64,000 bases of DNA from Bacteroidetes bacterium SB0662_bin_6 (lineage in GTDB: Bacteria; Bacteroidota; Rhodothermia; Rhodothermales; VXPQ01), in assembly GCA_009839485.1 (NCBI GenBank), contig VXPQ01000001.1, forward strand, positions 34,711 to 98,710, read 5' to 3'. Each line of letters opens with the position of its first letter. The first letter of the stretch is position 1. This document shows positions 10,082 to 44,416 of the stretch, one piece after another. A program made the translations under genes and the position numbers. Under the pieces are notes generated by a model. That model ran no database searches. It saw only the letters and a list, made by a program, of their open reading frames with translations, and was not told where the DNA came from.

Positions 10082-11161
10082 TTAACGGCGTTGGCCGCCG
10101 GGATACAACACGTTTCCGGTCTTTCCCCGGGCAAATCCCTCAATCCCCTGAAATATCTCGCTAATGCAGGGCACAGGGGGATTGTGACACTCCGGTGTGT
10201 CCGTGGCGAACAGCCCGGTGCATCTGGGCTGAAAATTATAGCCGGCCTCAAGACTCGTTTCCGTTGCAGGGGTCCATTCCCTGCCTATCCCCTCTCCGGC
10301 CCCGAAAAAACCGTAACCGTTCTTCACGTTAGAAAACGTACCCGGCACCGCAAGCAGATTCGCATCGAACACCCCGCCGGGCGGCGACCAGGACGAATCC
10401 GCAAGCAGGCCCGAGAATTCCATCTTCCGGAGCCATACGTAGGGGGCGCTTTCTTCGGGATCGGTAATCAGGCAATTGATTTGATAGGCCGCCCGAACGA
10501 TCTCAAAATCCCGCTCCATATCTATCGTGAAACGCCACCCCCCCGGGATGCGCTCGACTCGATCATCGTACGAAACAATCACCGGCAATTGCACAGCCGG
10601 GGCCACCGGCGTACCCTGCGGCCAGGCCTGGGGCGGCGGAACATTGATCGCATGGTACGTCACACGCAACCCGATGAGGTTCGGCACGTCGCCGTCGATA
10701 AAGACAGGAATGAGGACACTCGACTCGCCGGTTTCGAGGGTGAAATTTGCGGCGGGCGGCACGGTCACTTCAGCACTGGCCGTTTCCCCATCCGAGCGTA
10801 CCACCTCGAGCAGATAGCGCACCTCATGCTCCGGGCGGAACGGAGCCATGAAGAAATGTCCGGTGATCAGGCTGTCGAAATGCACGCGCTGATACGTCCA
10901 TTCGAGGCGCTCGCCCGTCGTGCGATTCGTGGAGAATACACGCGCATCGATCTTCCTATCCCGGTCGGGAATCAGTTGATCCGTAACTTCAAAGACCCGT
11001 ACATACTGGGTGTCGGCGGCGACATCCAGAAAGCCCCAGACCGTGAAGGGGATTTCGGTCCCGATAATCGCATCCACACTCTCCTCGCAACCGGTAGTCG
11101 CCAGCAGCAAGCCCGGCAACACTACCATGGCGAAAAGCCGGATAAACACCCTGTTTCGCAT
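10082..11161 (-). CDS. DUF4249-family lipoprotein (partner of the upstream TonB receptor)
   Basis: The track start at 11170 is TTG; the first ATG at 11161 gives MRNRVFIRLFAMVVLPGLLLATTGC (lipobox). C-terminal ..FSNVKNGYGFFGAG.. is characteristic of DUF4249. Confidence 0.7.
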   Translation of the reverse strand: MRNRVFIRLFAMVVLPGLLLATTGCEESVDAIIGTEIPFTVWGFLDVAADTQYVRVFEVTDQLIPDRDRKIDARVFSTNRTTGERLEWTYQRVHFDSLITGHFFMAPFRPEHEVRYLLEVVRSDGETASAEVTVPPAANFTLETGESSVLIPVFIDGDVPNLIGLRVTYHAINVPPPQAWPQGTPVAPAVQLPVIVSYDDRVERIPGGWRFTIDMERDFEIVRAAYQINCLITDPEESAPYVWLRKMEFSGLLADSSWSPPGGVFDANLLAVPGTFSNVKNGYGFFGAGEGIGREWTPATETSLEAGYNFQPRCTGLFATDTPECHNPPVPCISEIFQGIEGFARGKTGNVLYPGGQRR

Positions 11162-11179
11162 ATCATTCAAGGAAATATC

Positions 11180-13468
11180 CTAAAACGCGACCTTCAGGCC
11201 AACGATAGGCACAACAGGCAATTGATCGGTACGCTGGGCAGTAAGCAAATCCAGAGAAAAAAGATTCGCCCGGTCATAGGCGTTCATTACCCCGGCCTGC
11301 ACGGTCATTTCCACTCCCAGGGGCATATCGAACACCCGTTCCACGGTAACGTCCAGCCTGTGATAGGTCGGGAGCACCGCCCGATAGGGAATGCTCTCGT
11401 AGATAACACGGGGAAATCCCCGCACATTTCTGACGGCAACAGGACCGTCCATCAGCACGAATCCATCGAAACCCTCGACCGGCGTGAACGGCAATCCGGA
11501 CCCGAATTGCCACCGGGCGCTTATATCGAAACCGTACACGACCACCTTGCCCAGCACATTGATCTGGTGGCGCCGGTCGTGGGGCGGACGGAATCGCCCG
11601 GGATTCCTTACCGCCGGACTTTCCGGATCGATCTCGTACCGGGTGGAAGACAACCCGTAGTTCACAAACCCGTAAAAACGGGGCCGCCGCACTTCCATGC
11701 GCAGATCAAATCCGAATGCATCGCCATGGGCCTCCTGCAACCGTGTGGTGAAGCCGGGAAACGCAGTCCACTCCCCAATGAAGATGTTGTCCATGTTCTT
11801 GTAGAACCCCTCGATGGAGCATTCCAGCCAGGGGAACGGTTCCACCCGGTATCCAAGCAACGCATGCATGGAGCGCATGGCTTCGCTGGAGGGTGTTTGC
11901 ACCCAGGCGGTGAAAATATTGGTCGCGTCGCGGCGATCGCTCAGACCCACGGTCACCTGCCGGTAGATGCCCGCCGCCGCACTCCACTCATGGATACCGC
12001 GCTGCAGGCGCAGCCGTAACCGGGGTTCGAAATAATCGCCTGTGCTCCCCATCGTCTGGACGGTAAGCCCGGGCCGCACGTACAGCCCGCCGCCCGTGTA
12101 TATCTCGGGCTGGATATATGCGCCCACATTCGTAGGAGCGCCCCGGCCTACCGTGAGATTCTGAAACAGGCCGCCCAGCACGGTTTCCGTAAGCGGCGTA
12201 CGCAGGAAAAAGCCCCATTTGACTTCCGAGCTCCGGGCATAATTCGTCATATTGACGGCGAGGTTGAACTGCTCAAGGTCGGAGATCCGTGTCGGTTCCC
12301 CCCGGGGGCCGAAGGAACTTTCAAGACGTGAAACGGACACAAGCACCTCGCTCAGAATGGGAAGAATCCGAGGCGCTACAAGGTAGCGTACGCCGAGCGC
12401 CGTGTTACTCCAACTGACCTCATCGTCCCGCCGGAATACATCGTCCGTGGGGGTAAGCGTGCCGCGATCGAACGTCTTCAATCCCGTCACGGCAAGCTGC
12501 CGGTTCGGCCCCAGGCGCACATGTATTTTTCCGAATGCGTCATTGAACACATAGGGAAGCGCTGTGGACATGTACCTGGAGGCCAACTGGTCCAGCATCG
12601 AAAAACGGCCGGCGGCCAGAAAAGATATATAACCGGGAAGGATGGGGCCCTCGAGATGTCCTGCACTCGTGAACGGCGACAACGCCGCAGAAGCATTGAA
12701 TCCACGCTTGTTTCCGTTCCGAGAATGCACATCGATGACCGAGGATATTCTCCCCGAAAATTCACTTCCGAATCCGCCTGCGTACACATCGGCCCGGCTG
12801 ACGATTTCGGAAGAAAAGGCCGAATAAAAGCCCAGCACGTGAAAGGGCTGGTAAATCTCGATCCCGTCAAGCAGGGTCAGGTTTTGCGTAGGCTCACCGC
12901 CCCGGATGAACACTTGTCCACCCCGGTCTCCCATCAGCACTACGCTGGGAATCGTGGAAAGGTAGGAAACCAGATCGCCCGAAACGTCCGGCGAGGGAAT
13001 GAGATCGATATCCTCGGGGCGGATGGTTTGCTGTCCGGCGGTCACGCGCGCTGCGCCATCTTCACGCTCCGCCTCCACGGAAATGCCCTCCATCTCCACC
13101 GCATCTTCCCGGAGCACGATATTGACCAGTAAGCGATCGTCGGCCTGGATATCCAGCGTATCCACATACGTAACGAACCCGATAAAGGAAGCGCGGAGTA
13201 TGTATTGCCCGGGCGAGATGCGGCCTATGAGAAAAAATCCGTCCCCGTTGGAAACCGTTCCTGTCAACCCGCCGGTCATGTTATCGATCGACACATTGAC
13301 GCCCTGAAGCGATTCTCCACCCGGATCCGCCGTAACGAAACCGCGCACAGAAGCGGATTGCGCCCTAGCTTCAAGCAACAGCCCCGGAGCCGCCGCCATG
13401 ATGACATGCACCACAGCCACCAGTATCCACCGGCGAATATACCTGCTGTTCATGCCGCGTAACGTCAT
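11180..13468 (-). CDS. TonB-dependent receptor (~760 aa, CarboxypepD_reg-like N-domain)
   Basis: ATG at 13468 (or 13453) follows the upstream stop at 13480. VRGFVTAD..GVNVSI..TGTVSNGDGFFLI is the Cna/CarboxypepD_reg pattern. Plug segment ..QVFIRGGEPTQNL.. present. Ends ..VGLKVAF. Confidence 0.85.
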   Translation of the reverse strand: MTLRGMNSRYIRRWILVAVVHVIMAAAPGLLLEARAQSASVRGFVTADPGGESLQGVNVSIDNMTGGLTGTVSNGDGFFLIGRISPGQYILRASFIGFVTYVDTLDIQADDRLLVNIVLREDAVEMEGISVEAEREDGAARVTAGQQTIRPEDIDLIPSPDVSGDLVSYLSTIPSVVLMGDRGGQVFIRGGEPTQNLTLLDGIEIYQPFHVLGFYSAFSSEIVSRADVYAGGFGSEFSGRISSVIDVHSRNGNKRGFNASAALSPFTSAGHLEGPILPGYISFLAAGRFSMLDQLASRYMSTALPYVFNDAFGKIHVRLGPNRQLAVTGLKTFDRGTLTPTDDVFRRDDEVSWSNTALGVRYLVAPRILPILSEVLVSVSRLESSFGPRGEPTRISDLEQFNLAVNMTNYARSSEVKWGFFLRTPLTETVLGGLFQNLTVGRGAPTNVGAYIQPEIYTGGGLYVRPGLTVQTMGSTGDYFEPRLRLRLQRGIHEWSAAAGIYRQVTVGLSDRRDATNIFTAWVQTPSSEAMRSMHALLGYRVEPFPWLECSIEGFYKNMDNIFIGEWTAFPGFTTRLQEAHGDAFGFDLRMEVRRPRFYGFVNYGLSSTRYEIDPESPAVRNPGRFRPPHDRRHQINVLGKVVVYGFDISARWQFGSGLPFTPVEGFDGFVLMDGPVAVRNVRGFPRVIYESIPYRAVLPTYHRLDVTVERVFDMPLGVEMTVQAGVMNAYDRANLFSLDLLTAQRTDQLPVVPIVGLKVAF

Positions 13469-13479
13469 GATCGAAGGCT

Positions 13480-14769
13480 CTAAGGTTGGGAAGATCGTCC
13501 GGAGGACGAGAGGCTGGCCAACGAACTGCGCGCCATGCGATTGTCCGGTTCGATACGCAAGGCGGCTTCCCATGCCCGGCGCGCATTCTCCGGATCCCCG
13601 GACAACGCATACAAACTTCCCAGATTGATTAAAGCATGGGCATTCGTGGTATCCGCCTGCACCATCGTCTGAAACGATCGGATCGCGGAAAGGGTATCCC
13701 CCTGCAACAAATGCAGCACGGCCACATTGTTCCGAAAATCGAGATTACCGGGAGCCAGATACAGCGCCACGCTGTAGGCCTGCATGGCTTGGTCGTACCG
13801 GCGGGCTTTCCTCAGGGACGCCCCCAGTCTGGCATGCGCATACGGGTCCTCGGCATACGTTTGGGAGGCCGTCGTCAGGTTCGTAATTTCCGCCTGGAGC
13901 GCACGGAGTTCCTCGGCATATCGTTGAACCTCCTCTGCCTCTTCCGCATAACCAAGGCGCATCAGAACCTGGGCCATGTTGTAATGCGCGCCCTGATGCC
14001 AGGGCCATTCCCGGGCAACGGCTTCCAACGGAGCCAGCGCCTCCTCCCACCGCCCGAGTTTGACGAGAAAGGAAGCTGCATGGTACCGATATTCGTGGTT
14101 ATCGGGCGCATGACGGAGCGCACGCCGGGCGCTGCGGAGCGCCCCCTCGAAGTCTCCAAAGTCGTCCAGTAACAGGGCCACCCCGAAATGGGCCTGGGCA
14201 AAGGTGCTGTCGAGAGCAAGCGCCTGTCCGAAAGCATAGCGGGCGCTGTCCGCCTTGCCCAACTCGATATATGCGCGGGCAATGCCCAGCCAGGGACGCG
14301 GATCAGGGGCGATCTCCAGCTCGCGACGGTAGTATCCCACAGATTTCCCATACTCTTGCCGGAGCCAGGCCGTATTGCCCAGATTATTCCATACGCCAGG
14401 ATAGGCAGGGCGAATCGAAAGCGCTACCCGATACGCCGAATCCGCCTGGTCGGGTCTATGCAATCCGGCATAAATGCGGCCGCGCAAAAACGAAATGTCC
14501 GCAAGTTCCGGGGCCAAAGCGGCCACGCTGTCCGTAAAGGCAAAAGCCTGTGCAAAATCGTTCCGTTCCAGCGCTTCGCTGCTCAACCGGATAAAATGCG
14601 CGGCGGCGGGGGACATCGGCTGGGCGTCATTCGCCCCCTGCCCGTTCAGGGTTTCCTCCGGGCGCGGTTCGTTCGCGCATCCTCCTGCCCATAGCAGACA
14701 GCATACCACAGCAAGGCACGATGCAATCCACCGGCTGCGCGACGCACTCAAGGATACGATGCCTCGCAT
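13480..14769 (-). CDS. TPR-repeat lipoprotein
   Basis: The track start at 14793 is TTG; ATG at 14769 gives MRGIVSLSASRSRWIASCLAVVCCLLWAGGC. Repeated A/Y/L 34-residue TPR periodicity throughout. Confidence 0.8.
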   Translation of the reverse strand: MRGIVSLSASRSRWIASCLAVVCCLLWAGGCANEPRPEETLNGQGANDAQPMSPAAAHFIRLSSEALERNDFAQAFAFTDSVAALAPELADISFLRGRIYAGLHRPDQADSAYRVALSIRPAYPGVWNNLGNTAWLRQEYGKSVGYYRRELEIAPDPRPWLGIARAYIELGKADSARYAFGQALALDSTFAQAHFGVALLLDDFGDFEGALRSARRALRHAPDNHEYRYHAASFLVKLGRWEEALAPLEAVAREWPWHQGAHYNMAQVLMRLGYAEEAEEVQRYAEELRALQAEITNLTTASQTYAEDPYAHARLGASLRKARRYDQAMQAYSVALYLAPGNLDFRNNVAVLHLLQGDTLSAIRSFQTMVQADTTNAHALINLGSLYALSGDPENARRAWEAALRIEPDNRMARSSLASLSSSGRSSQP

Positions 14770-14905: not shown

Positions 14906-15985
14906 TCAGGGGGGTTCTTCCATCGTCACTTCTTCCGCACGCTTCCGGGCAGCAGCGGCCCGGGAGGCGACCCGGGCCACCGCAAGCGCTTGTTGCTGTT
15001 CGGCGTGACGCCCGGCAAGAGCAAGCCAATTGGCGAGTGCACGCCACTTGGCCGGATCGTCGGGAGAATATGCGGCAGCGGCGCGGGCCAACCCGATCTG
15101 GCTATCCAGTTCCTGCAAAGCTTCCGTGGCGTCCACATGCCGCTGGCCTTCTTCCACATCACCAAGCGCAATCAGCGCACGGCCATAGTTGTACCGGAAA
15201 GCGGACTCATAGGGTTTCGCATACGCCGCACGTTCCAGCAAGGGAAGCGCATCCTCCGCATCGCCGGTTTTGAGCAATAACGCGCCGAGCCGGTATGCAA
15301 AGTCGGCATTTCCCCCATCATAATCCCATGCCCTGCGCGCATGGGGAAGCGCCTCTTCTGTCCGCCCCTCTTCATCGTACAACTCAGCCAGCCAGGCGTG
15401 GACCTGCGCATTGGTCGAATCATGCATAAGCGCCTCATCATATGCCCATGCCGCACTGTCGGGCAGGTGCAGCAATTCGTAGGTGCGGCCCGTCTGCGCC
15501 CATGCCTGGGACAACATGGCGGCATCCGTTCGCCGGTAAAACGCCCGGATATGCTCCGGCGAGGACAGGATAGCTTCCCGCTGAAGCCGGTACCGGCGGA
15601 TTGCCTCACTGTACTGACCCTCTTCAAACGCGACATGCCCGCGCCGAAACCAGCCGTCGCGCAGGTACGGATCCAGGGATACCGCTTGCGCAAAGGCTTC
15701 GTCGGCTAAAGCAAGCTGGTATGTATGCATCAGAAGGCTCCCCAGAAGCATGTGCGCCTCCGGCAGGTCGGGCGCCCGACTCAGCAGACTGTCCGCCAGT
15801 GCAAGAGTTTCCGTATACCGCCCTGCCTCTTCTTCTTCTCGCGCCTTCACAAGCAGACTTCGAACTTCTTCATCGGCCGCCTGCAGGCGTTCCGCTGGCG
15901 TCTGCGCCGGTTTCCCGCACCCTGCGAGCACCAGCAATGCAAACAAGCACCCTGTTACAGATATGATCGGGGAAGATTCGGGCAT
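14906..15985 (-). CDS. TPR-repeat lipoprotein
   Basis: MPESSPIISVTGCLFALLVLAGCGKP contains a lipobox. TPR periodicity is present. ATG verified. Confidence 0.8.
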   Translation of the reverse strand: MPESSPIISVTGCLFALLVLAGCGKPAQTPAERLQAADEEVRSLLVKAREEEEAGRYTETLALADSLLSRAPDLPEAHMLLGSLLMHTYQLALADEAFAQAVSLDPYLRDGWFRRGHVAFEEGQYSEAIRRYRLQREAILSSPEHIRAFYRRTDAAMLSQAWAQTGRTYELLHLPDSAAWAYDEALMHDSTNAQVHAWLAELYDEEGRTEEALPHARRAWDYDGGNADFAYRLGALLLKTGDAEDALPLLERAAYAKPYESAFRYNYGRALIALGDVEEGQRHVDATEALQELDSQIGLARAAAAYSPDDPAKWRALANWLALAGRHAEQQQALAVARVASRAAAARKRAEEVTMEEPP

Positions 15986-16151: not shown

Positions 16152-17894
16152 TTACGGACGAGGTTGGTTTCCCAAAACAATGGTTTCTACGGCATCCGAC
16201 CCTTCCACGATATGTACCTCGCTGCCAGCGGGCAAGTTCACATACCGCGCGGTCTCTCCGCCGGGCCAGCGCACCACAAGCGTATCCACTTGCGCAGCCT
16301 CTCCTAACCCGAACGTCAGCGCCTTGTCCGAAGAAGCAAGGTAACTCGAACCTGTCCGCACACGCCGCTGCATCCGTCGATCGCCTGCCACAGCCGTCAC
16401 ATGGGCGCCAAGGGCATCCCTGTTCCCGTGTACACCCTGCAAGCGCACGCGCAAAAAAGCGCCTCCCTGCGCCTCGTTACGCAAGAGGTGGACCGGCCCG
16501 GCATTCTCCGTAATCAGGACATCCTCATCGCCGTCCCGGTCATAATCGGCGATGGCCGCCGCACGGGCAATGATCGGTTCGGAGATCGGGTACTCGTATT
16601 CGGAAAAATGCCCATCCCCGGCATTCAGAAAAAGCTGCGGCTCCTGCCGATAAGACAATCCTTCCGCAGTGCCTTCCACATCCGGCGAAATATGCCCGTT
16701 CGCCAGAAAAATATCCATATCCCCATCCAGATCGGCATCGAAGAGGCACAGCCCGAAAGTAAGCGTGGGAAGCGACGGCAGCCCCACCTGAGACTGGGCT
16801 GCCCGGTCCAAAAAAAGACCCGGAGATATCTGACGGTATAAACCCGCCGGTTCGTTTGCAAAATGCCCGATAACGACCGACGGAGCACCCGTGTGATCCA
16901 GTATCCCGGCATCCACGCCCATGCCCGCGCGCGCCTGTCCCTCCTCGTCATACGCAATGCCGCTCGCCACTCCCTGCTCGACGAATGCGCCCGTCCCGTC
17001 GTTCATGTACAGCAAATCGCGCTGCGTATCGTTCGCCACCACCAGATCCGACCAGCCATCCTCATTGAAATCCCATTCGGTCACGCCCAATGTCTTGCCG
17101 GGAGCAGGCAGAAATCCGGCTTCGGCGGTACGATCGCTGAATTTGCCTCCCTCATTACGGTAAAAACGACCTGGAGTGCCTTCGTAAAGCTTTGGCGTGC
17201 AATAGGTTTTGTCTTCCCCGTTAATAGTGCACCACATGTCTTTTTCCGGGGACCACTCGACGTAATTCCCCACGTACAAATCGACATATCCGTCCCGATC
17301 GGCATCGAAAAAAATGGCCGCTGTACTCCACGCGGCATCGTCCGAAAGACCTGCAGCCTGTCCTGTCTCCGTAAACACGACACGCCCCCCGGGGGCCGCC
17401 TCCCGGTCGTTTCGAAGCAGCAGATTCCGCCCAACCGCGGTGAGGAAAATATCCGGATCGCCGTCGTTGTCGTAGTCGGCAATGGCGAGACCCATGCCGT
17501 AGGCTCGCAAACCGGCAAGGCCCGTTTCTTCCGTGACTTCCGTAAAATGCCCTCCTTCGTTCCGATACAGGCGGAGTGCAGGCAGCCCGGCATCGCCGCG
17601 ATCCGGCCATACGCCACCTGCAACCAGTACAATATCCTGCCAGCCGTCCCCGTCGTAATCCAGAAAACCTGCCCCGCCGCCCATTGTCTCGGGAAACCAC
17701 ATTTCGCCGAATGCGCCGGTAACATGCTGAAATGCCCCCAGCCCCGCTTCCTGCGTAACACGGGTAAACCGAAGCGCATCCGATGGAGACCCGGAAATAT
17801 CCGTTTGCCCATCAGGGGCCTCATTGTCCGTCCCGCACCCGCCCGTGGCGAGCATGCACGCGGCGAACAGCATCATACGGGAGCAAACGGTCAC
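16152..17894 (-). CDS. CRTAC1-family lipoprotein (FG-GAP/VCBS repeats plus ASPIC/UnbV C-domain)
   Basis: GTG start overlaps the upstream TGA (GTGA, 17891-17894). Lipobox LATGGC. Repeated DYDGDGWxD / DYDNDGDxD loops. C-terminal ..NRDALGAHVT..RVRTGSSYLASSD..FGLG..VRWPGG. Confidence 0.85.
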   Translation of the reverse strand: MTVCSRMMLFAACMLATGGCGTDNEAPDGQTDISGSPSDALRFTRVTQEAGLGAFQHVTGAFGEMWFPETMGGGAGFLDYDGDGWQDIVLVAGGVWPDRGDAGLPALRLYRNEGGHFTEVTEETGLAGLRAYGMGLAIADYDNDGDPDIFLTAVGRNLLLRNDREAAPGGRVVFTETGQAAGLSDDAAWSTAAIFFDADRDGYVDLYVGNYVEWSPEKDMWCTINGEDKTYCTPKLYEGTPGRFYRNEGGKFSDRTAEAGFLPAPGKTLGVTEWDFNEDGWSDLVVANDTQRDLLYMNDGTGAFVEQGVASGIAYDEEGQARAGMGVDAGILDHTGAPSVVIGHFANEPAGLYRQISPGLFLDRAAQSQVGLPSLPTLTFGLCLFDADLDGDMDIFLANGHISPDVEGTAEGLSYRQEPQLFLNAGDGHFSEYEYPISEPIIARAAAIADYDRDGDEDVLITENAGPVHLLRNEAQGGAFLRVRLQGVHGNRDALGAHVTAVAGDRRMQRRVRTGSSYLASSDKALTFGLGEAAQVDTLVVRWPGGETARYVNLPAGSEVHIVEGSDAVETIVLGNQPRP

Positions 17895-37392: not shown

Positions 37393-37408
37393 AAAACCGG
37401 AGATCGGA

Positions 37409-38494
37409 TCAGAAGGAGATATTGACGGCGAAGCGCTGGATTGCGTCGAAAACACCAAAGTCCGTGTAGGCATAATCCACACCGAATCCAATGCCCGAAG
37501 CACTGTATTGCAAACCTGCTCCGAAGCTGAATCCTTCTTCCGAGTCTTCGCCCACAAAAGCGCGCCCCAACCCGCCGCGCAGGGACAGGATGTTCATGAG
37601 CGTGTACTCGCCGCCGACCTTGACATGCTCCGCAAAGTCACGCGGACGCTGCGCATCCACGGAAACCATGAAGGAATGCATGTTCGGATCCATGCTGGTG
37701 AGATCCATCACGTCCATCGAAATACCGATCTGGAACGTCAGGGGAAGTTCGAAACGCTCCCGCTCGTACACCAGCTCCCGCGAGAAATTCCGGGTGCTCA
37801 TAGCGATCGTGAGGCTCTCGAAGCCCGTGTCGTACAGCACGCCGAAATCGACCGCGATGGTATTCAGCGCATAATCCTCGAAGGTGGCGGATGTACCGTC
37901 GTCAAGAGACGTAGCGCCGTCGTCCGAACGCGCCTTGGCGTGCGAGCCCAGGTCCTGCTTGGCGTACTTGACATGCGCGCCTACGGAAAAGCGATCCGTA
38001 AACGACCGGGCATACCCTACGCCTACTGCAAGCGCGGTCGGGTTATAGACCCCCGTATCGATGTAGCCGTCTTCGTTTTCCGCGCGAACCGTGCCCAGAA
38101 AATCCCCGTAATCCACGTTCACAAGGGAAAGGCCGACCACTCCGTAGTTTCCTCCGCCCGGGCGGTACGCCACGCTCGCGGCATTGTACTGGATGTCCAC
38201 GAGGTAGTTCATGATGCCGAATCCCGCACTGAAATTACTCCCCATGCGAGCCATGGAAGCGGGATTGTAAAACATCGCCGACGACGAACCTGTCGTGGAC
38301 GACGTCACGGCGCCGCCCATGGCGGTCGCCCTCGCATCCACGGACGCAGAGAGAAACTTGAAGCCGGTCTGACCGCGCTTGGTCGTTTCCACCTCCTCGT
38401 CCGGGCTGGGGATAAACGTCTGCGAAAACGCCGACGGGGCCGTCAGTAACCCGATGGCTACGAGGAAGCACGTAGTAACAATACTCCTTTTCAT
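37409..38494 (-). CDS. PorV/PorQ-family outer-membrane beta-barrel
   Basis: ATG at 38494 (the track start at 38500 is TTG). MKRSIVTTCFLVAIGLLTAPSAFS signal. ..FKFLSASVDARATAMGGAV..SAMFYNPASM.. signature. Ends ..AVNISF. Paralog of 21015-22052. Confidence 0.7.
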   Translation of the reverse strand: MKRSIVTTCFLVAIGLLTAPSAFSQTFIPSPDEEVETTKRGQTGFKFLSASVDARATAMGGAVTSSTTGSSSAMFYNPASMARMGSNFSAGFGIMNYLVDIQYNAASVAYRPGGGNYGVVGLSLVNVDYGDFLGTVRAENEDGYIDTGVYNPTALAVGVGYARSFTDRFSVGAHVKYAKQDLGSHAKARSDDGATSLDDGTSATFEDYALNTIAVDFGVLYDTGFESLTIAMSTRNFSRELVYERERFELPLTFQIGISMDVMDLTSMDPNMHSFMVSVDAQRPRDFAEHVKVGGEYTLMNILSLRGGLGRAFVGEDSEEGFSFGAGLQYSASGIGFGVDYAYTDFGVFDAIQRFAVNISF

Positions 38495-38581: not shown

Positions 38582-40921
38582 TTACCGAATGACCGTGAAT
38601 TTCCGGAATACCTGATCGTTCGTTGCATTGTCGGTAATCACGGCAATGTAAATACCGCTCACGAGCAACTGCCGGGCACTTGTGGTGAGGTTCCACTTCT
38701 CGTCCCCACTGCCGTCGGTGTGTTCGATCGTCTCGATGAGTTCGCCGATCTCCGAGTAAACCCTGATCGTGCAATCTCCCGGAATGTTGAAGAAAGCGAT
38801 TTCGTCCTCCTTCGTGAAACGAATGGACTGGTCGGAACCGAGATTCACCGGGTTCGGCACTACGCGAACATCCTCGATCGTCCCGGTAGCCCCGAACGGC
38901 GGTCGCTTCAGGTTGGCCGGCTGGTAGGTCTGCGTCAGGTACCGGCTGCTGCGCAGCGGCACGCCTCCGCCGGGAACCCCCGTAAGCCCATTCGGATCGT
39001 TGGGAAGGTTTTCGCCAACCGCAACGAGATAGTAGTAGTAATCCGTACCGCGGACGGCGGTCTGATCGTTAAACGATGTCGCCGAGGCAGCCAGCATGCC
39101 GCTTTCGCAATCGGGACGAGCGCCAGCCAGACAAGTGTATGGCATTTCGTCTTCCACCCGGCGAAGCCTTCCCTCCTGCGCATTCTGGTCCATACTGCTC
39201 AACGCTCCCATCAGATCGCCTGCTTCACGTACGTAGTCGTACGCCGGGCTCCACCAGACATTCCGCTCCGTACGGTACACTTCCCAACCGGTGCGCGTCG
39301 GACCGCCCGACAGCGGCTCCCAGGAAAGTTCGATCTGACCGGGCTTGCCTGCTACCGCAAACGTACTCGGCGGAAGCGGCGGCTGTGCAACGGGGTAGGT
39401 CGTGAAATTGTTCGACGCCTCGTAGACCGCCCTGGCATTCACGAAGTTCTTGAAAAGCGAATCCCTTGCCGTCAGTACCCACTGGTTCTTTGTCTGGGCC
39501 TCGAGCCCCAGATCGTACACGTCATGGAAACTGTACGCTACATCGTCCTTGATGACCCCGTCGCCGTTGGCGTCGTAGCGAATGATCGCATCCCTGTTCC
39601 GACCCGTGAGTTTATACTCCCGGCCGATAGCGAGTGCGGCGTCGAAGTCGAGACCGCCCACGGAACGTGCGAACACGATACGCACCTCATCGCCAAAAGC
39701 CATTTCGTAGGGGCCGTACGCCACCGTTGCGGCGTGGCCTCCCTGGCGGCCCTGGCTCGGATTGTTCGACGGATCCCAGAAATTGCCGTCAGGCTCGATA
39801 CGATCCGCCCACATCGGGCACATACGCGTGCGGGATACATCCGAAGAGCATCCTTCGGGCGCCGGCGTGTGGTCCTCGCGCGTGAGGATGCCGTCTTCGT
39901 AATACTCGAGGTGCGGAGCTCCCGCCGCCGTCAGTTTCTCGTCCTGATCCATGAAGCCGATCGTATGCGGCTGCACATTGCGATCGAAGGAGGCGTCGCT
40001 TATGGAATTCGGAGCGTACAAAGGCATCTCCCCATCGAAATAGGCCCCGGCCAGACGACCCACCGTATCTCCTGTCGCCTGAGACCAGTGCGCTTCGAGA
40101 ATCGGCGCCCCGAGGTTGTCCCAGTTGCCCGCGGAATAATCCGGCTCGTAGCCCTTCCACAGATAATACGCCGTGATGTCGAGCGGATAATCGGCATGGC
40201 CGTCGCCTACGGCGTCCACCATGCTGTACTTGCCCCACACCTGGCCGCCATCACCGATCCATGCGGCCGTATCCGTACCACGCCAGCGATGAATCCAGTA
40301 GAAATAGGTTTCCTCGAGATTCTGGCCATCCAGCTCGATTTCGGGGTCGTCGTCAGTATTCCCCGTATTCGTGAAGAGATACTCGACAATGTGGTATTCG
40401 TCGTGAAACGCATTGCTCCAGGCGTATGCGCGCTTGCGGACGGTGATGCCGATGTTCATGTTCCATACGGATTCCTGAACCCGGTCGGCCGGCAGGTTCG
40501 GATCGACCTCGCTCACAACCGCCACCCGGTCGAACGAAGCCACGCCGTCTACCGTGACCTCCGTGTCCTCCCATTTGGCAATCAACTTGTCTTCCACCGG
40601 AAAGGCGAAATCCACGCCGGGGTCGCGGGGACCGATGCGCGACGTGTAGTACGGATACGCCTGTCCGTTGGGATCCGTCCAGTTCTTGGCGCCGATCCAG
40701 AAGGCTCCGGAGCGCTCGTGCGTCGCATTCCGGTGAATGGCCGGATAGGCCATCAGGTTCGACGTTTCGTTCTTGACGCCCACCTGGGGGTACCCGTCCT
40801 GGTAGTCTCCGATGTCGATCCACGAAACGGTGAACTGGGCAGCGGCCGTACCGGCGCCCAGTACCCCCAACGTGAACGCAAGAACAGCGCCCGTGAAAAG
40901 TTTGTAACTGGCTTTCATCAT
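38582..40921 (-). CDS. secreted 779-aa protein, paralog of 22137-24383, with T9SS type-A C-terminal sorting domain
   Basis: ATG at 40921 gives MMKASYKLFTGAVLAFTLGVLGAGTAAA/QF. Blocks shared with the paralog: YPAI, FWIGAKN, HDEYHIVEY.FTNTGN.DDDPEIE, AYGPYEMAFGDEV, TARDSLF. Ends ..CTIRVYSEIGELIETIEH..WNLTTSARQLLVSGIYIAVITD..KFTVIR. Confidence 0.7.
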   Translation of the reverse strand: MMKASYKLFTGAVLAFTLGVLGAGTAAAQFTVSWIDIGDYQDGYPQVGVKNETSNLMAYPAIHRNATHERSGAFWIGAKNWTDPNGQAYPYYTSRIGPRDPGVDFAFPVEDKLIAKWEDTEVTVDGVASFDRVAVVSEVDPNLPADRVQESVWNMNIGITVRKRAYAWSNAFHDEYHIVEYLFTNTGNTDDDPEIELDGQNLEETYFYWIHRWRGTDTAAWIGDGGQVWGKYSMVDAVGDGHADYPLDITAYYLWKGYEPDYSAGNWDNLGAPILEAHWSQATGDTVGRLAGAYFDGEMPLYAPNSISDASFDRNVQPHTIGFMDQDEKLTAAGAPHLEYYEDGILTREDHTPAPEGCSSDVSRTRMCPMWADRIEPDGNFWDPSNNPSQGRQGGHAATVAYGPYEMAFGDEVRIVFARSVGGLDFDAALAIGREYKLTGRNRDAIIRYDANGDGVIKDDVAYSFHDVYDLGLEAQTKNQWVLTARDSLFKNFVNARAVYEASNNFTTYPVAQPPLPPSTFAVAGKPGQIELSWEPLSGGPTRTGWEVYRTERNVWWSPAYDYVREAGDLMGALSSMDQNAQEGRLRRVEDEMPYTCLAGARPDCESGMLAASATSFNDQTAVRGTDYYYYLVAVGENLPNDPNGLTGVPGGGVPLRSSRYLTQTYQPANLKRPPFGATGTIEDVRVVPNPVNLGSDQSIRFTKEDEIAFFNIPGDCTIRVYSEIGELIETIEHTDGSGDEKWNLTTSARQLLVSGIYIAVITDNATNDQVFRKFTVIR

Positions 40922-41029: not shown

Positions 41030-44000
41030 CTAAAAGCTTACTCGCAGACCGAGCGTGACCCGGCGCGGATTCAGGAAGGTATTGAACCGGTGGTTCGGCA
41101 TATCGATGTATGCCTTGTCGTCCAGCACCTGATCCAGCTTACTACCGGAAACCTCTTGCCAGGCGCTGCCCGTCCACTCATGATACGTACCCGTATCGGC
41201 GGCATACACCCAGCCCTTCTCGAAGCCCGCATCGGGAGCCTCCGGCAGCGTGGCCTTGGCTTCGATCGGCTGCCAGGCGACATCCCAGTCGCGGAATACG
41301 CCCGGGCGGTCGTTCCCCGGAACCCATTCGTACGGCTTGGAACTGCCTTCCGGCAACTGGTCGAACATATCCTCCGGCAAATGGAGCGACCGCATGTAAT
41401 CCCCGGCATCGTCTCCCTGACGTTCGAGGAACGCGCCGCCCCAGTTCAAATGCCGCAGATTGAACACATTGTCGATGTCCGCAAACAACTGCAACTGCGT
41501 GGGGCCGGCGGCAAAGTGCTTCGTAAACCGCAGGTCGAAATTCCAGTAATCCCGGTACCGGAGATTGTTGCGCACTTCCGGAATGCTTGCGGCAAAATCG
41601 CCCGCCCAGGTCAGCGCAACGCCCTGACGCCATTCGCCGAGGAGGCTGATCCGGAAATTGCCCAGGGGGGTCTTCCCGCCGACCTCTGGGCCGAAGCCCT
41701 GCGGCGTAAGCACCAGCAGATTCGCGCGGGCGAACGGCTCGGCCACCGGCGCAGACTGCCTGTAGTCCGTGGCGGTGCGCAGCCAGTTCACCATCTGGAA
41801 CGAGTTCTCGAAGAAATTCGAGTACCCGAAGTTGCCCGACTTACGCTGCTGGTAGGTGAAGTTCGCAAAACCCTGGACCCACCTGCCGCGGTTCTTGGAG
41901 ATGCTGAACTCCGCTCCCCGCGTATCCGAGTAATGCCACGGCATCTTCGTAGAGTAATTCACCACGCCGCCAAGGCTCTGGAAATTGACGTTCCGGGTTT
42001 CTTCCTTGTTATCCCGATAGTACCCGGAAACCCGCAGCAGGAAGAGATCCAGCACGTTCTGGTCGAAGCCCAGTTCGTACGCCACCGTCTTGGGCAGGGG
42101 GTGGTTCGGATTCGCGATCTGATCGATGCCGCCCGCCTTGGACTGCTGAATGCCCAGTACGTCGTAGGCGTCCATCATCTGGCGGAAGTGACCGTAGTTG
42201 AAGTACAACTTGCTGTTGGTCGTGATCGGGAAGGAAATGCCTACGCGGGGGCTGACGCCAATCTGGGACCCGACGGATTCTCTTGGAAGATCCTCATCCA
42301 GTCTGTCCCTGTCGAAGCGCAGGATGCCATCGTAGAATCCGTACTGCCACCATTCCGTATTCGGGTCGAAGTAATCGAGGCGCACGCCGAGATTCGCGAT
42401 CATGCCCTGGAATTCGAGCTTACCCTGGACATAGGCGGCGCCCTGTACCGGCGAGCCGTCCCACGGCCAGCGCGCGCCCGACTGCGGGCCTGCCAGCGCA
42501 ATGTTTATGCTCGCGTAGTTCATGTCGTAGTCGCTGTAGATCAGCTCGGCGCCCGTCTGGAAAAGAAAGAAACGATTGAGCTGGCTCGTAAGATCGAAGC
42601 GACCGGTGTACACCGTCACGGACGAGGTATCGCGCGTCTTCACCCAGTGGCCGCCCGTCGATTCGTCCGTCAGGATATTACCGCCGATCCCGGCAAAGCC
42701 AAAGGGCTCCTCACCGGAGCAATACGGCGTAGACGCACCGTCGCCGGTGACATCGGATCCGCCGCCGAAGCACACGAGACCCGCGTGCCCTTCGAAGCCC
42801 GGATTGGGGCGACCGAAGTTGTCCGTCCAGGGAACACGAACGAGTTCATACGGCTGGCAGGACTCGCCATTGGGACCCGTGCCGTCTGCCGAACATACGA
42901 ACGATCCGTCCCGCAGCGTCGGAAGACGGGTCTGGTAATTCGACTCCATGCGCTGCAAGCCCACCTCGTAAAAGGTGTTCTGATTCAGCGTATGCGTGAA
43001 CTGCAAGCCCAGCATGTCGTGATCGACATCGCCGATGGGCCATTGCCCGTCCGTGAACAACTCGTCCCCGCGAATGTCGATCTCCCAGATCTGCTTGCCT
43101 ACGTCACGCCCCTCACTCTGCCACCATGGATACGCCGGGATCTGGCCCGTCCACAACTGCGTGCCCCGGGCGTTTTCATGCCAAAGCTGGCCGCGCTGCC
43201 GCGTGCCGAGCGCATGGGCCGTCAGTTTCATGCCGGGGCCCACGTTGGAAATCAGCTTCACCTGATAGGTATTGTCCGTGTATGCTTCCCGGTCCTGCGG
43301 ATACAGATACGCCGTTTGAGATCCGCGATAAGAAGCAAGGAAGCGCAGACCGCCGAGATGCTGGCTGATACCCGGAATCGGACCGCCGATCGTGATATCG
43401 GCATCGTAATCCGGCATTGTGATCTCGTTGCTCTTGCGCCACATGTAGTGCCAGTATTCGATCATGTCCGCTTCGGTCACGTCGAACCCTTCATCGTGCA
43501 AACGGCTAATAATGCCCGCCCAACCCGGGAACGGCTTGTACTGCCGTGCTTCGTAGGCATCCCATACGCCGCCCGAACCGTTCAGCCGAACCGAGGGATC
43601 CAGCACCGGACGCGCAAACCATGTGTTGCATTCGATGACGGAAGAAGGATAGGAACAACTCGAGGGCAACTGGTGATAGGGATCGAAGGTCTTGTCCTGA
43701 GCCGGCGCAAAACGAAGGAGCGCATCCACCGTGTATTCCGTGCGGGAAGGCTCTTTCGTAGCCACATTCACGATGCCCGAGCGCACGTTTCCGTATTCCG
43801 CGCTGAACCCGCCCGTTTGCACCTGCACTTCTTCAAGCGACGTGTAACTGACGCTGGTCATGGGATCGTTGTGGCGGCCCGTGCGCATCTGCAAGCCGTC
43901 CACAATAAAGGCGACCTCGTTGAGCCCGCCGCCGCGCACTCTCATGCCCGGCTCGATGCCCGCCTGCAGATCCAGCACTTCCGAGACGCCCGCTACAGGC

Positions 44001-44416
44001 AGATCCTGGAAATCCTGGGCGCTCAGGTTCGCCACGTTCGCCGAAACGTCCGCCTGCACAATAGGCTGCTCGGCCACGACGACCACTTCGTCAAGTCCTA
44101 CCGTTTCTTCCTGAATCTGGAAATTAACGGTGGAGGTAAGGTCGGTACTTACCTGAATTCCCTCCTGTACCGACGCCGTGTATCCGATGAACGATGCGCG
44201 CAGGTCGTACGTACCGGGACGCACATTCAGAATGTGGTAGAACCCTTCCGCATCGGTTACGGCGCCTTGCGTCGTCCCCTCGATCACGACATTCACCCCG
44301 GGAAGCGATTCTCCGGTGGCCGTATCGGTTACCTGACCAGCGATCTTGCCTTGCTGCGCCCAGGCAGTGGCCGGGATAAGCAGAGCAAGCGTAAACAGTA
44401 ACTTTGCCAGTCTCAT
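41030..44416 (-). CDS. large (1128-aa, SusC-sized) TonB-dependent receptor
   Basis: ATG at 44416 gives MRLAKLLFTLALLIPATAWA. 62 of the first 79 residues are identical to the 24437-27667 product by hand count. Plug present; ends ..TLGLRVSF. Confidence 0.85.
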   Translation of the reverse strand: MRLAKLLFTLALLIPATAWAQQGKIAGQVTDTATGESLPGVNVVIEGTTQGAVTDAEGFYHILNVRPGTYDLRASFIGYTASVQEGIQVSTDLTSTVNFQIQEETVGLDEVVVVAEQPIVQADVSANVANLSAQDFQDLPVAGVSEVLDLQAGIEPGMRVRGGGLNEVAFIVDGLQMRTGRHNDPMTSVSYTSLEEVQVQTGGFSAEYGNVRSGIVNVATKEPSRTEYTVDALLRFAPAQDKTFDPYHQLPSSCSYPSSVIECNTWFARPVLDPSVRLNGSGGVWDAYEARQYKPFPGWAGIISRLHDEGFDVTEADMIEYWHYMWRKSNEITMPDYDADITIGGPIPGISQHLGGLRFLASYRGSQTAYLYPQDREAYTDNTYQVKLISNVGPGMKLTAHALGTRQRGQLWHENARGTQLWTGQIPAYPWWQSEGRDVGKQIWEIDIRGDELFTDGQWPIGDVDHDMLGLQFTHTLNQNTFYEVGLQRMESNYQTRLPTLRDGSFVCSADGTGPNGESCQPYELVRVPWTDNFGRPNPGFEGHAGLVCFGGGSDVTGDGASTPYCSGEEPFGFAGIGGNILTDESTGGHWVKTRDTSSVTVYTGRFDLTSQLNRFFLFQTGAELIYSDYDMNYASINIALAGPQSGARWPWDGSPVQGAAYVQGKLEFQGMIANLGVRLDYFDPNTEWWQYGFYDGILRFDRDRLDEDLPRESVGSQIGVSPRVGISFPITTNSKLYFNYGHFRQMMDAYDVLGIQQSKAGGIDQIANPNHPLPKTVAYELGFDQNVLDLFLLRVSGYYRDNKEETRNVNFQSLGGVVNYSTKMPWHYSDTRGAEFSISKNRGRWVQGFANFTYQQRKSGNFGYSNFFENSFQMVNWLRTATDYRQSAPVAEPFARANLLVLTPQGFGPEVGGKTPLGNFRISLLGEWRQGVALTWAGDFAASIPEVRNNLRYRDYWNFDLRFTKHFAAGPTQLQLFADIDNVFNLRHLNWGGAFLERQGDDAGDYMRSLHLPEDMFDQLPEGSSKPYEWVPGNDRPGVFRDWDVAWQPIEAKATLPEAPDAGFEKGWVYAADTGTYHEWTGSAWQEVSGSKLDQVLDDKAYIDMPNHRFNTFLNPRRVTLGLRVSF

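What the first reader, a model, noticed from the sequence alone, without database searches (positions are those of the whole stretch)
10082..44416. 34-kb, 19-gene co-directional array built from two diverged tandem copies of one supermodule, with no SusD, CAZyme or regulator recognised
Seen, on the minus strand in 5' to 3' order. Copy 2 (44416 to 27901): large TBDR, T9SS-CTD protein, PorV/Q-like barrel, CRTAC1, CRTAC1, TPR, alpha/beta-fold protein, small TBDR, DUF4249. Copy 1 (27667 to 10082): large TBDR, T9SS-CTD protein, PorV/Q-like barrel, CRTAC1, TPR, CRTAC1, TPR, TPR, small TBDR, DUF4249. Every position has a paralog in the other copy, except the alpha/beta-fold protein versus extra TPR proteins. 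The only sizeable internal gap (233 nt, 27668-27900) separates the two copies. Four junctions are 4-nt start/stop overlaps. The architecture is PUL-like in scale, but I recognise no SusD-like lipoprotein, glycoside hydrolase, sigma/anti-sigma pair or other regulator. To my knowledge none of the non-receptor families (CRTAC1/ASPIC-UnbV, DUF4249, the CTD protein) has an established bacterial function.
Basis: partly seen in the sequence, partly recalled or inferred. Interest (0 to 1): 0.8.

Follow-up and report, generated by a model that had tools for sequence, protein, structure and literature searches.

The report
Tandem SusD-less outer-membrane uptake loci
Two old, diverged copies of a cell-surface nutrient-uptake gene set sit side by side in an uncultured Rhodothermales genome, and its three-gene core (large TonB-dependent transporter, secreted surface protein, PorV-like barrel) recurs in hundreds of species and I found no paper describing it.

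Summary
There are 19 co-directional minus-strand genes (10082-44416) forming two paralogous modules, 28-55% identical at protein level. Pfam and NCBIfam find no SusC, SusD, CAZyme or regulator family in them.

The interpretation needs three corrections.

1. This is not a genome-specific duplication. The two-copy order is kept in about 10 related species. X1 and X2 fall on opposite sides of the family tree, so the split is ancient.

2. The conserved unit is a triad: a large non-SusC TonB-dependent transporter (B), a 750-780 aa protein X carrying a type IX secretion (T9SS) C-terminal domain, and a PorV/PorQ-family barrel (V). In 79 loci from species-representative genomes, 68 of 71 X genes have B directly upstream and 72 of 75 have V directly downstream. 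The taxa include Rhodothermales, Balneolales, Ignavibacteriales, Kryptoniota and Fidelibacterota. The genes after the triad vary: CRTAC1-like plus TPR lipoprotein pairs here, GHL10-type genes elsewhere.

3. DUF4249 already has a proposed role as a lid lipoprotein for non-SusC transporters.

Best reading: two PUL-like, SusD-independent surface uptake machines. X is probably held on the surface by its neighbouring PorV-like barrel, as PorZ is by PorQ, and works with the large transporter. The substrate is unknown; a glycan is most likely. All evidence is computational.

The parts
44504..44547 (-). Promoter-like element upstream of module 2 (A-run, TTGCTT, 17 nt, TAACCT)
   Evidence: It has the same architecture as the element upstream of module 1. 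The composite motif occurs on this strand in 6-46 kb at only three places: these two sites and one inside the GMC coding region. The motif was derived after seeing the two sites, so this is suggestive only.
41030..44416 (-). Large TonB-dependent transporter B2 (about 1128 aa), not SusC family
   Evidence: CarbopepD_reg_2 + Plug. 44% identical to B1. Start at MRLAKLL with an AWA/QQ signal-peptidase site.
38582..40921 (-). X2: secreted surface protein with a novel N-domain, FN3 and a T9SS-type C-terminal domain
   Evidence: No Pfam hit. Weak PorZ C-terminus and Por_Secre_tail hits. 36% identical to X1. Orthologs at 77-88% identity.
37409..38494 (-). V2: PorV/PorQ-family outer-membrane barrel
   Evidence: NF033709, 183.6 bits against a cutoff of 90. 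Below the PorV and PorQ equivalog cutoffs. Pfam PorV 27.8 bits.
35686..37473 (-). CRTAC1-like beta-propeller lipoprotein (start uncertain)
   Evidence: FG-GAP_3 + UnbV_ASPIC. Lipobox LSAC.
33899..35689 (-). CRTAC1-like beta-propeller lipoprotein
   Evidence: FG-GAP_3 146 bits + UnbV_ASPIC. Lipobox LAAGC. 4-nt overlap with the gene upstream.
32627..33880 (-). TPR lipoprotein
   Evidence: TPR families. Lipobox LAGC followed by acidic residues.
31282..32604 (-). Alpha/beta-fold protein lacking the nucleophile serine
   Evidence: Abhydrolase_1 32 bits. The nucleophile-elbow motif reads [AG]-H-[GA]-[LE]-G in the window protein and all 16 homologs. Recurs in X2-type modules.
28857..31241 (-). Small TonB-dependent transporter s2
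   Evidence: CarboxypepD_reg + Plug + TonB_dep_Rec_b-barrel. 47% identical to s1.
27901..28860 (-). DUF4249-like lipoprotein D2 (putative transporter lid)
   Evidence: 35% identical to D1, E 3e-53. Lipobox LSAC followed by EED. 4-nt overlap with s2.
27784..27830 (-). Promoter-like element in the 233-nt spacer (A-run, TTGTTT, 17 nt, TACCAT)
   Evidence: The A-run, TTG and TAnnAT are kept in 12 related species. GGAGGA lies 8 nt before the ATG.
24437..27667 (-). Large TonB-dependent transporter B1 (1076 aa), not SusC family
   Evidence: CarbopepD_reg_2, Plug, OMP_b-brl_3. TIGR04056 SusC/RagA scores only 72.5 bits against a cutoff of 368.
22137..24383 (-). X1: secreted surface protein with a novel N-domain, FN3 and a T9SS-type C-terminal domain
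   Evidence: No Pfam hit. AlphaFold model pLDDT 83, pTM 0.82. The FN3 and C-terminal domain match PorZ 5m11 among others. The N-domain gives weak beta-sandwich matches to N-domains of GH94/GH65/GH63/PL21 enzymes.
21015..22052 (-). V1: PorV/PorQ-family outer-membrane barrel
   Evidence: NF033709, 176.4 bits against a cutoff of 90.
19212..20954 (-). CRTAC1-like beta-propeller lipoprotein
   Evidence: FG-GAP_3 130 bits + UnbV_ASPIC 77 bits. Matches human CRTAC1 9etn. Lipobox FAGGC.
17891..19135 (-). TPR lipoprotein
   Evidence: TPR families. Lipobox TAGGC.
16152..17894 (-). CRTAC1-like beta-propeller lipoprotein
   Evidence: Lipobox ATGGC. 4-nt overlap. Absent, together with the next TPR gene, from relatives L001, L010 and L016.
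14906..15985 (-). TPR lipoprotein
   Evidence: Lipobox LAGC.
13480..14769 (-). TPR lipoprotein
   Evidence: Lipobox WAGGC.
11180..13468 (-). Small TonB-dependent transporter s1
   Evidence: CarbopepD_reg_2 + Plug.
10082..11161 (-). DUF4249 lipoprotein D1 (putative transporter lid)
   Evidence: PF14054, 29.4 bits against 28.5. Lipobox ATTGC followed by EES.

Best explanation
The array is two adjacent, anciently diverged copies of a SusD-independent, PUL-like outer-membrane nutrient-capture system found in Rhodothermales and related FCB-group phyla.

Each copy starts at its own promoter-like element and encodes only exported envelope proteins:

1. A conserved triad.
- B is a very large non-SusC TonB-dependent transporter, with about 850-900 residues after the plug. 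That is SusC-sized.
- X is a T9SS-exported surface protein with a novel beta-sandwich N-domain, an FN3 domain and a type A-like C-terminal domain.
- V is a dedicated PorV/PorQ-family barrel.
- I infer that V receives X and keeps it on the cell surface through its uncleaved C-terminal domain, as PorQ keeps PorZ. X would then act as the substrate-capture or lid partner of B.

2. One to three pairs of a CRTAC1-like, integrin-type Ca-binding beta-propeller lipoprotein with a TPR lipoprotein. I infer these are accessory surface binding or scaffold subunits.

3. A second, ordinary-sized TonB-dependent transporter with a DUF4249 lid lipoprotein, probably for a smaller product.

The substrate is unknown. 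A glycan or glycoside is the most likely class.

Shown: gene content, paralogy, conservation of the triad and of the tandem order, and family memberships.
Inferred: export routes, the X-V anchoring, the X-B partnership, the surface location of the lipoproteins and the substrate class.
For: - Family assignments and paralogy.
- All 19 products have a signal peptide or a lipobox, read by eye.
- Triad conservation: 68/71 X genes have B directly upstream and 72/75 have V directly downstream, in 79 loci from species-representative genomes spanning several phyla.
- The triad behaves as one unit. In L016/L017 exactly B1-X1-V1 drops to 64-79% nucleotide identity, while the genes on both sides stay at 86-93%.
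- X C-terminus: it hits the PorZ C-terminus (E 3e-6) and weakly Por_Secre_tail. Homologs carry PF18962. The model shows FN3 plus a beta-sandwich tail that matches PorZ 5m11.
- Precedent for a C-terminal-domain protein kept by a cognate PorV-like barrel encoded nearby: review PMC10202324.
- DUF4249 as a lid that is cofit with its transporter.
- Link to glycans. Other triad loci carry GHL10 (224 bits), NAGPA, GH16 or GH78 genes. Long X homologs are fused to BNR propellers or pectin-lyase-like beta-helices. The X N-domain weakly resembles the beta-sandwich N-domains of GH94/GH65/GH63/PL21 enzymes. The window's flanks encode L-rhamnose catabolism, sugar kinases and aldolases, and TAT-exported GFO/GMC oxidoreductases.
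- Two transcription units: a promoter-like element lies only before each large TBDR, and the one before B1 is conserved in 12 species.
Against: - There is no experimental datum for any member.
- The window shows no CAZyme inside the array and no T9SS core genes.
- X1's own C-terminal-domain score is below the Por_Secre_tail threshold.
- Structural matches for the X N-domain are weak (TM 0.25-0.28, from a model with pLDDT 66).
- Sugar-catabolic flanks are not conserved next to distant CRTAC1-type loci, so the glycan inference rests on scattered contexts.
- Price et al. note that transporters with alternative lids have small, non-glycan substrates so far.
- The acidic-residue rule for surface lipoproteins comes from Bacteroidota, and only about half of the lipoproteins here meet it.
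- No complex prediction could be run for B-X-V.
Confidence: 0.55

Rival explanations
1. A recent, genome-specific tandem duplication of one 9-10-gene operon, with redundant copies drifting apart.
For: Every position has a paralog in the other copy, in the same order.
Against: Both copies have their own orthologs at 73-97% identity, in the same tandem order, in about 10 other species. X1 and X2 are only 36% identical and fall on opposite sides of the midpoint root of 157 family members. X1 groups with Fidelibacterota/Marinimicrobia sequences. One close relative (L001) lacks copy 2 through deletions but keeps the alpha/beta-fold gene.
Confidence: 0.03
2. An uptake system for a non-glycan substrate: peptides or proteins (as with RagAB), a metal chelate, or another small molecule. 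The Ca-binding propellers would serve as binding proteins.
For: There is no CAZyme in the array. Known substrates of transporters with alternative lids are small: cobamides, siderophores, possibly lysine. X2-type modules elsewhere are preceded by Na+/solute symporters of unknown specificity.
Against: There is no reductase, ABC importer, peptidase or siderophore-related gene in or next to the array. Other triad loci carry GH16, GHL10, NAGPA or GH78. X fusions are to carbohydrate-type folds. B has a SusC-sized barrel.
Confidence: 0.2
3. A surface-architecture, adhesion or envelope-assembly system and not an uptake system. X and the integrin-like CRTAC1 propellers would act as adhesins. Alternatively, the propeller plus TPR lipoprotein pairs would be module-specific assembly factors, analogous to BamB/BamD.
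For: FG-GAP propellers are integrin-like. X has FN3 and a T9SS tail, as many adhesins do. A beta-propeller lipoprotein paired with a TPR lipoprotein recalls BamB plus BamD (my own knowledge). Bacteroidota BAM uses a FadL/PorV-like barrel with surface lipoproteins (PMC12578637).
Against: Each module contains two TonB-dependent transporters, and X is almost always directly next to one. V scores far below the BamG model (17 bits against 250). The number of CRTAC1-TPR pairs varies from 0 to 3 between close relatives, which fits accessory binders better than essential assembly factors.
Confidence: 0.12

Closest known systems
SusC/SusD polysaccharide utilization loci (PULs) of Bacteroidota
   Same: A co-directional locus of exported proteins only, built around a large TonB-dependent transporter with an N-terminal carboxypeptidase-regulatory-like domain, plus surface lipoproteins. 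It is comparable in scale. Related loci carry glycoside-hydrolase-type genes.
   Different: The transporters are not SusC family (72.5 bits against 368). There is no SusD family protein, no CAZyme in the array, and no HTCS or sigma/anti-sigma regulator. The partner next to the transporter is a T9SS-type protein plus a PorV-like barrel, not a lipoprotein.
Non-SusC TonB-dependent transporters with alternative lid lipoproteins (BT2172/BT2173 DUF4249 pair; Price, Deutschbauer and Arkin, bioRxiv 2023)
   Same: The small TBDR and DUF4249 lipoprotein are adjacent and co-directional, in both copies. DUF4249 has a lipobox followed by three acidic residues.
   Different: Here the pair is embedded at the end of a larger module. 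No fitness data or complex model exist for these proteins. The substrate is unknown in both cases.
T9SS cargo kept on the surface by a cognate PorV-like barrel (PorZ-PorQ, PorU-PorV; type B cargo with PorP/SprF encoded nearby)
   Same: A C-terminal-domain protein is encoded directly next to a PorV/PorQ-family barrel. The X tail resembles the PorZ tail in both sequence and fold.
   Different: X and V are not orthologs of PorZ/PorQ or PorU/PorV, since they score below the equivalog cutoffs. The pair is coupled to a TonB-dependent transporter, which I have not seen described for the known pairs. Retention of the C-terminal domain is untested.
CRTAC1 / ASPIC-UnbV family (human CRTAC1, PDB 9etn)
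   Same: FG-GAP_3 repeats with DxDxDG Ca-binding loops plus a C-terminal UnbV_ASPIC domain. A profile of the window and related proteins matches 9etn at E 1e-20.
   Different: The bacterial proteins are lipoproteins without the EGF-like tail. They are encoded in alternating pairs with TPR lipoproteins inside transporter loci. No bacterial function is known.

Membership tests
SusC/SusD PUL | SusC/RagA-family TonB-dependent transporter (TIGR04056) | tested here: not met
   B1 scores 72.5 bits and s1 42.7 bits against a cutoff of 368.25. Only the N-terminal domain and the start of the plug match.
SusC/SusD PUL | Adjacent SusD/RagB-family lipoprotein | tested here: not met
   no SusD_RagB or SusD-like Pfam family in any of the 19 proteins. 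The TPR lipoproteins hit only generic TPR families. Remote homology was not tested by profile-profile comparison.
SusC/SusD PUL | Linked CAZymes and a dedicated regulator | tested here: not met
   no GH/PL/CE/CBM family and no regulator in the array or in the flanking ORFs tested. dbCAN itself was not available.
TBDT + DUF4249 lid pair | DUF4249 (PF14054) lipoprotein encoded next to, and on the same strand as, a non-SusC TBDT | tested here: met
   D1 scores 29.4 bits against 28.5. D2 is assigned by 35% identity to D1. Both have a lipobox and lie directly after s1 or s2.
TBDT + DUF4249 lid pair | [quoted passage not shown] | not testable with these tools
   No multimer prediction or genetics was available.
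T9SS cargo with cognate PorV-like barrel | C-terminal T9SS sorting domain on the cargo | tested here: inconclusive
   X2 scores 16 bits on TIGR04183 (cutoff 23). X1 and X2 hit the PorZ C-terminus at 25.8 and 22.4 bits. Family members pass PF18962. The model shows a C-terminal beta-sandwich matching PorZ 5m11.
T9SS cargo with cognate PorV-like barrel | Adjacent PorV/PorQ/PorP-family outer-membrane barrel | tested here: met
   NF033709 at 176.4 and 183.6 bits (cutoff 90). Adjacent in 72 of 75 loci.
T9SS cargo with cognate PorV-like barrel | T9SS core machinery present in the genome; the C-terminal domain is retained and bound by the barrel | not testable with these tools
   The window holds no T9SS core gene. 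Other C-terminal-domain proteins occur in related Rhodothermales loci.
PorV or PorQ proper (equivalogs) | Score above the NF033710 (PorV) or NF033711 (PorQ) cutoff | tested here: not met
   PorV 60 and 54 bits (cutoff 250). PorQ 59 and 92 bits (cutoff 220).
CRTAC1 / ASPIC-UnbV | FG-GAP-type propeller repeats plus a C-terminal UnbV_ASPIC domain | tested here: met
   all four proteins score 108-146 bits on FG-GAP_3 and 59-77 bits on UnbV_ASPIC. PDB 9etn matches at E 8e-16 (single sequence) and 1e-20 (profile).
Serine alpha/beta hydrolase | G-x-S-x-G nucleophile elbow | tested here: not met
   the motif reads [AG]-H-[GA]-[LE]-G in the window protein and 16 homologs. The C-terminal His motif is kept.

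The most novel reading that the evidence does not exclude
The B-X-V triad is a distinct, undescribed class of TonB-dependent uptake machine. Its substrate-capture or lid subunit is not a lipoprotein but a T9SS-exported protein, held non-covalently by its own PorV/PorQ-like barrel. This would couple type IX secretion to nutrient import across at least five FCB-group lineages. The CRTAC1-like propeller plus TPR lipoprotein pairs would be a new kind of surface binding or processing subunit, giving CRTAC1/ASPIC proteins their first bacterial role.
Probability: 0.35. Interest if true: 0.8.

Novelty: new variant of a known kind. Interest (0 to 1): 0.62.

Why it matters
SusC/SusD pairs are the accepted signature for finding nutrient-uptake loci in Bacteroidota and their relatives. 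Rhodothermales, Balneolales, Ignavibacteriales, Kryptoniota and Fidelibacterota are abundant in saline, marine and sediment habitats, and they would be under-annotated by that rule.

A conserved triad of transporter, T9SS cargo and PorV-like barrel would help in four ways:
- It gives a second searchable signature for such loci.
- It gives the many unexplained PorV/PorQ paralogs a job.
- It links type IX secretion to import.
- It provides a genomic handle on the function of two large unknown families: the X family (at least 1,843 clusters at E<=1e-30, a count inflated by long FN3-repeat proteins that match only the FN3 part; no Pfam model) and bacterial CRTAC1.

Tried and rejected
- The generic sigma-70 promoter and terminator scan over 26.5-46 kb gave no more sites than shuffled sequence, so I did not use it.
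- Rfam at gathering thresholds and a tRNA scan of the whole window found nothing.
- The Foldseek search with full-length X was dominated by FN3 and C-terminal-domain matches. I therefore remodelled the N-domain alone. That model is less confident (pLDDT 66) and gave only weak matches.
- Sequence and profile searches of X against the PDB found nothing, even at E<=10.
- I asked whether the CRTAC1-like proteins are beta-propeller polysaccharide lyases, as the rhamnose genes nearby suggested. The profile matched only CRTAC1 and integrin alpha chains. The idea is unsupported but not excluded.
- I asked whether the window's sugar-catabolic flanks travel with CRTAC1-type modules in distant genomes. 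They do not, within 10-kb flanks.
- Ten literature searches found no description of the triad or of a bacterial CRTAC1 function.

Full report
**1. The observation**

ORF listing shows 19 long minus-strand ORFs filling 10082-44503.

Pfam and NCBIfam give these families:
- Two large transporters (B1 24437-27667, B2 41030-44416) and two small ones (s1, s2). All carry a CarboxypepD_reg-like domain plus a Plug.
- Four proteins with FG-GAP_3 + UnbV_ASPIC (CRTAC1-like).
- Four TPR proteins.
- Two PorV/PorQ-family barrels (NF033709, 176 and 184 bits against a cutoff of 90; below the PorV and PorQ equivalog cutoffs).
- DUF4249 (29.4 bits against 28.5) and a paralog without its own Pfam hit.
- One alpha/beta-fold protein.
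- Two proteins, X1 (748 aa) and X2 (about 780 aa), with no Pfam family.

All-against-all blastp confirms position-by-position paralogy: B 44%, X 36%, V 52%, CRTAC1 50-55%, TPR 28-38%, s 47%, DUF4249 35%.

No SusC family membership was found (72.5 bits against 368). No SusD, GH/PL/CE/CBM or regulator family was found in the array. No regulator family was hit in any flanking ORF tested.

- There are three, not four, candidate 4-nt overlaps.
- Internal gaps of 166, about 112-136 and about 108 nt exist besides the 233-nt one.
- The co-directional run also includes a Zn-dependent alcohol dehydrogenase upstream, and a GMC oxidoreductase, its small subunit and a TIM-barrel gene downstream.

**2. All products are envelope proteins**

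I read the N-termini by eye; no SignalP was run.
- B, X, V and s have signal-peptidase-I-type sites (for example AWA/QT, AKA/QW, TFA/QI).
- All CRTAC1-like, TPR and DUF4249 proteins have a lipobox cysteine. This cysteine is nearly invariant in the CRTAC1 alignment.
- DUF4249 has three acidic residues right after the cysteine, and about half of the other lipoproteins have two. In Bacteroidota that pattern marks surface lipoproteins (PMC12578637). Whether the rule holds in Rhodothermales is unknown.

**3. Origin and conservation**

The best match to X1 (97%) is a Rhodothermales MAG.

The tandem order recurs widely. The order T-H-s-D-B-X-V-C-T-(C-T)-T-s-(D) is present in nine species-representative genomes (L010-L017, L026). 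Here T is TPR, H the alpha/beta-fold protein, C CRTAC1-like and D DUF4249. The full two-copy array is present on one contig of a more distant relative, at 73-77% protein identity (L007/L008).

One 87%-identical relative (L001) has only module 1. Blastn shows that it lacks window 32659-44584, 27831-31268 and 14657-17804, yet it keeps the alpha/beta-fold gene. So it has suffered deletions, and the CRTAC1-TPR pair at 14657-17804 is an indel polymorphism.

X2 has its own orthologs (77-88%) and a large family of its own. X1 is no closer to X2 than to Marinimicrobia or Fidelibacterota proteins. In a neighbour-joining tree of 157 members, X1 and X2 sit on opposite sides of the midpoint root. The split is therefore ancient, and the tandem arrangement is ancestral to a clade, not specific to this genome.

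**4. The conserved core is a triad**

A scan of one genome per species found 442 stretches encoding an X relative. I mapped the window's proteins onto the 79 best loci:
- 68 of 71 X genes have a B-type transporter directly upstream.
- 72 of 75 have a PorV-like gene directly downstream.

Taxa named in the records include Rhodothermales, Rubricoccaceae, Salinivenus, Balneolales, Ignavibacteriales, Kryptoniota and Fidelibacterota/Neomarinimicrobiota.

What follows the triad varies:
- 29 loci carry CRTAC1-like and TPR genes, usually alternating. Some also carry the alpha/beta-fold gene (X2-type modules: L048, L070, L074, L081, L086) or s-D (Salinivenus L031, L034).
- 35 loci have no CRTAC1-like gene within reach. 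The 31 with exactly one triad and at least 6 kb of downstream sequence typically carry a TIG-domain protein, a T9SS C-terminal-domain protein and GHL10 (224 bits), and sometimes NAGPA.

In L016 and L017, nucleotide identity to the window falls to 64-79% across exactly B1-X1-V1. It is 86-93% on both sides. The triad is therefore inherited, or evolves, as one cassette.

A profile search of 1.84 billion cluster representatives gives 1,843 hits at E<=1e-30. Part of that count comes from the FN3 domain.

**5. What X is**

The full-length AlphaFold model (pLDDT 83, pTM 0.82) shows three parts:
- a mostly-beta N-domain of about 520 residues,
- an FN3 domain,
- a C-terminal beta-sandwich.

Foldseek matches for the tail include PorZ (5m11). 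In sequence, the tail hits the PorZ C-terminus and, sub-threshold, Por_Secre_tail. Many family members pass PF18962.

The N-domain has no PDB sequence match. Modelled alone (pLDDT 66, pTM 0.78), it gives only weak structural matches (TM 0.25-0.28) to the N-terminal beta-sandwich domains of GH94, GH65, GH63, GH116 and PL21 enzymes.

Longer homologs fuse the X region to BNR/sortilin propellers or to right-handed beta-helices, always with a T9SS tail.

**6. The other parts**

- CRTAC1-like proteins match human CRTAC1 (9etn, E 1e-20 with a profile) and integrin alpha propellers. No bacterial function is reported in the searchable literature.
- DUF4249 (BT2173) is predicted to cover the outer face of its transporter BT2172 and is cofit with it (bioRxiv 10.1101/2023.03.17.533168).
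- In the same preprint, non-SusC transporters have about 570 residues after the plug. Here s1 and s2 have about 525-535 and B1 and B2 about 865-915 (Pfam coordinates). B is therefore SusC-sized.
- The alpha/beta-fold protein lacks the nucleophile serine in all 17 sequences compared.

**7. Transcription units**

The 233-nt spacer holds an A-run, TTGTTT, 17 nt and TACCAT (27784-27830). A GGAGGA lies 8 nt before the ATG. The A-run, TTG and TAnnAT are kept in 12 species.

An element of the same build lies before B2 (44504-44547). Apart from one hit inside the GMC coding region, none lies before any other gene of the block. The motif was derived after the fact, so this is suggestive only. It fits two units, each starting at the large transporter.

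**8. Substrate**

The array itself gives no clue. The context points to sugars:
- The window's flanks encode L-rhamnose isomerase, rhamnulokinase and rhamnulose-1-phosphate aldolase/dehydrogenase (the last at 1028 bits against 634), plus LutABC.
- They also encode UxaE, PfkB, DeoC-type aldolase and aldehyde dehydrogenase.
- They encode two TAT-signal GFO/IDH/MocA oxidoreductases, a GMC oxidoreductase with a TAT-signal small subunit, and TIM-barrel isomerase-like proteins.
- Distant CRTAC1-type loci sit next to GH78 (L002), to GH16 plus an Ig-rich T9SS protein (L048), to sugar-acid genes (L005), or to Na+/solute symporters (L070 and others).

These contexts are not uniform. A glycan or glycoside is the most likely class, but it is not established.

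**9. Mechanism proposed**

X is exported by Sec and then by the T9SS. It is taken by its cognate barrel V and stays bound through its C-terminal domain. This follows the PorZ-PorQ precedent and the idea that cognate PorV-like barrels protect the C-terminal domain from cleavage (PMC10202324). X presents its beta-sandwich domain at the mouth of B.

CRTAC1-TPR lipoprotein pairs add or hold substrate. B imports larger fragments. s, with its DUF4249 lid, imports a smaller product.

The steps from 'X is taken by V' onward are inference.

**10. Comparison and novelty**

The system works like a PUL but fails the SusC, SusD and CAZyme membership tests. It combines two known ideas: alternative lids for TonB-dependent transporters, and T9SS cargo held by a cognate PorV-like barrel. 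I found no description of that combination.

I rate it a new variant of a known kind. The evidence is purely computational, hence the moderate confidence.

Noticed in passing
window 21200-27200, compared with L016 (OX638293.1) and L017 (OZ244993.1): Only the B1-X1-V1 segment is strongly diverged (64-79% nucleotide identity), while the genes on both sides are 86-93% identical. This looks like replacement by a diverged allele or fast evolution of a surface-exposed cassette.
   Followed up: partly
window 14657-17804, 27831-31268 and 32659-44584, compared with L001: An 87%-identical relative lacks these three segments: one CRTAC1-TPR pair, s2-D2, and B2 through TPR2. It keeps the alpha/beta-fold gene between them. 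L010 and L016 also lack the CRTAC1-TPR pair.
   Followed up: yes
window 31282-32604: The alpha/beta-fold protein and 16 homologs have Gly or Ala where the nucleophile serine should be, yet keep the C-terminal His motif. It also has an extra N-terminal domain of about 190 residues. It is probably not a serine hydrolase.
   Followed up: partly
window 50896-58627: An L-rhamnose catabolic set on the minus strand: isomerase, rhamnulokinase and bifunctional rhamnulose-1-phosphate aldolase/dehydrogenase, next to LutABC-type lactate utilisation genes. UxaE, DeoC-type aldolase, PfkB and aldehyde dehydrogenase lie at 45802-50883.
   Followed up: partly
window 1628-4112 and 6361-9807: Two GFO/IDH/MocA oxidoreductases and the small subunit of a GMC oxidoreductase carry twin-arginine signals (SRRNFLK, RRTFLQ, DRRESLK). 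With the TIM-barrel isomerase-like gene, they resemble periplasmic oxidative sugar or glycoside pathways. They score far below the BT_2158 glycoside 3-dehydrogenase cutoff.
   Followed up: partly
window 60000-64000: GC content falls from about 0.63 to 0.54-0.58, and a phage-integrase-family gene lies at 62319-63320. This may be the edge of a mobile element.
   Followed up: no
window 58970-60538: Three overlapping long ORFs on both strands, none with a Pfam match. The real gene here is unidentified.
   Followed up: no
L008 3443-6322: In the 73-77% relative, an extra 959-aa TonB-dependent receptor gene sits between the two modules.
   Followed up: no
L047 (Ignavibacteriales), L055 (Kryptoniota), L022: Tandem B-X-V triads also occur in other lineages, so side-by-side triads are a recurring layout.
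   Followed up: no
L020 16856-19726: A 956-aa protein combining multihaem cytochrome c554/MtrC-like regions with TPR repeats follows a CRTAC1-type module.
   Followed up: no
L070 2979-4271: A TnpB-family RNA-guided endonuclease gene lies between the two Na+/solute symporter genes upstream of an X2-type module.
   Followed up: no
L045 and L075: Short contigs carrying X-V are binned as a Halobacteriales archaeon and a Planctomycetes MAG. These are probably binning errors and not real occurrences.
   Followed up: no
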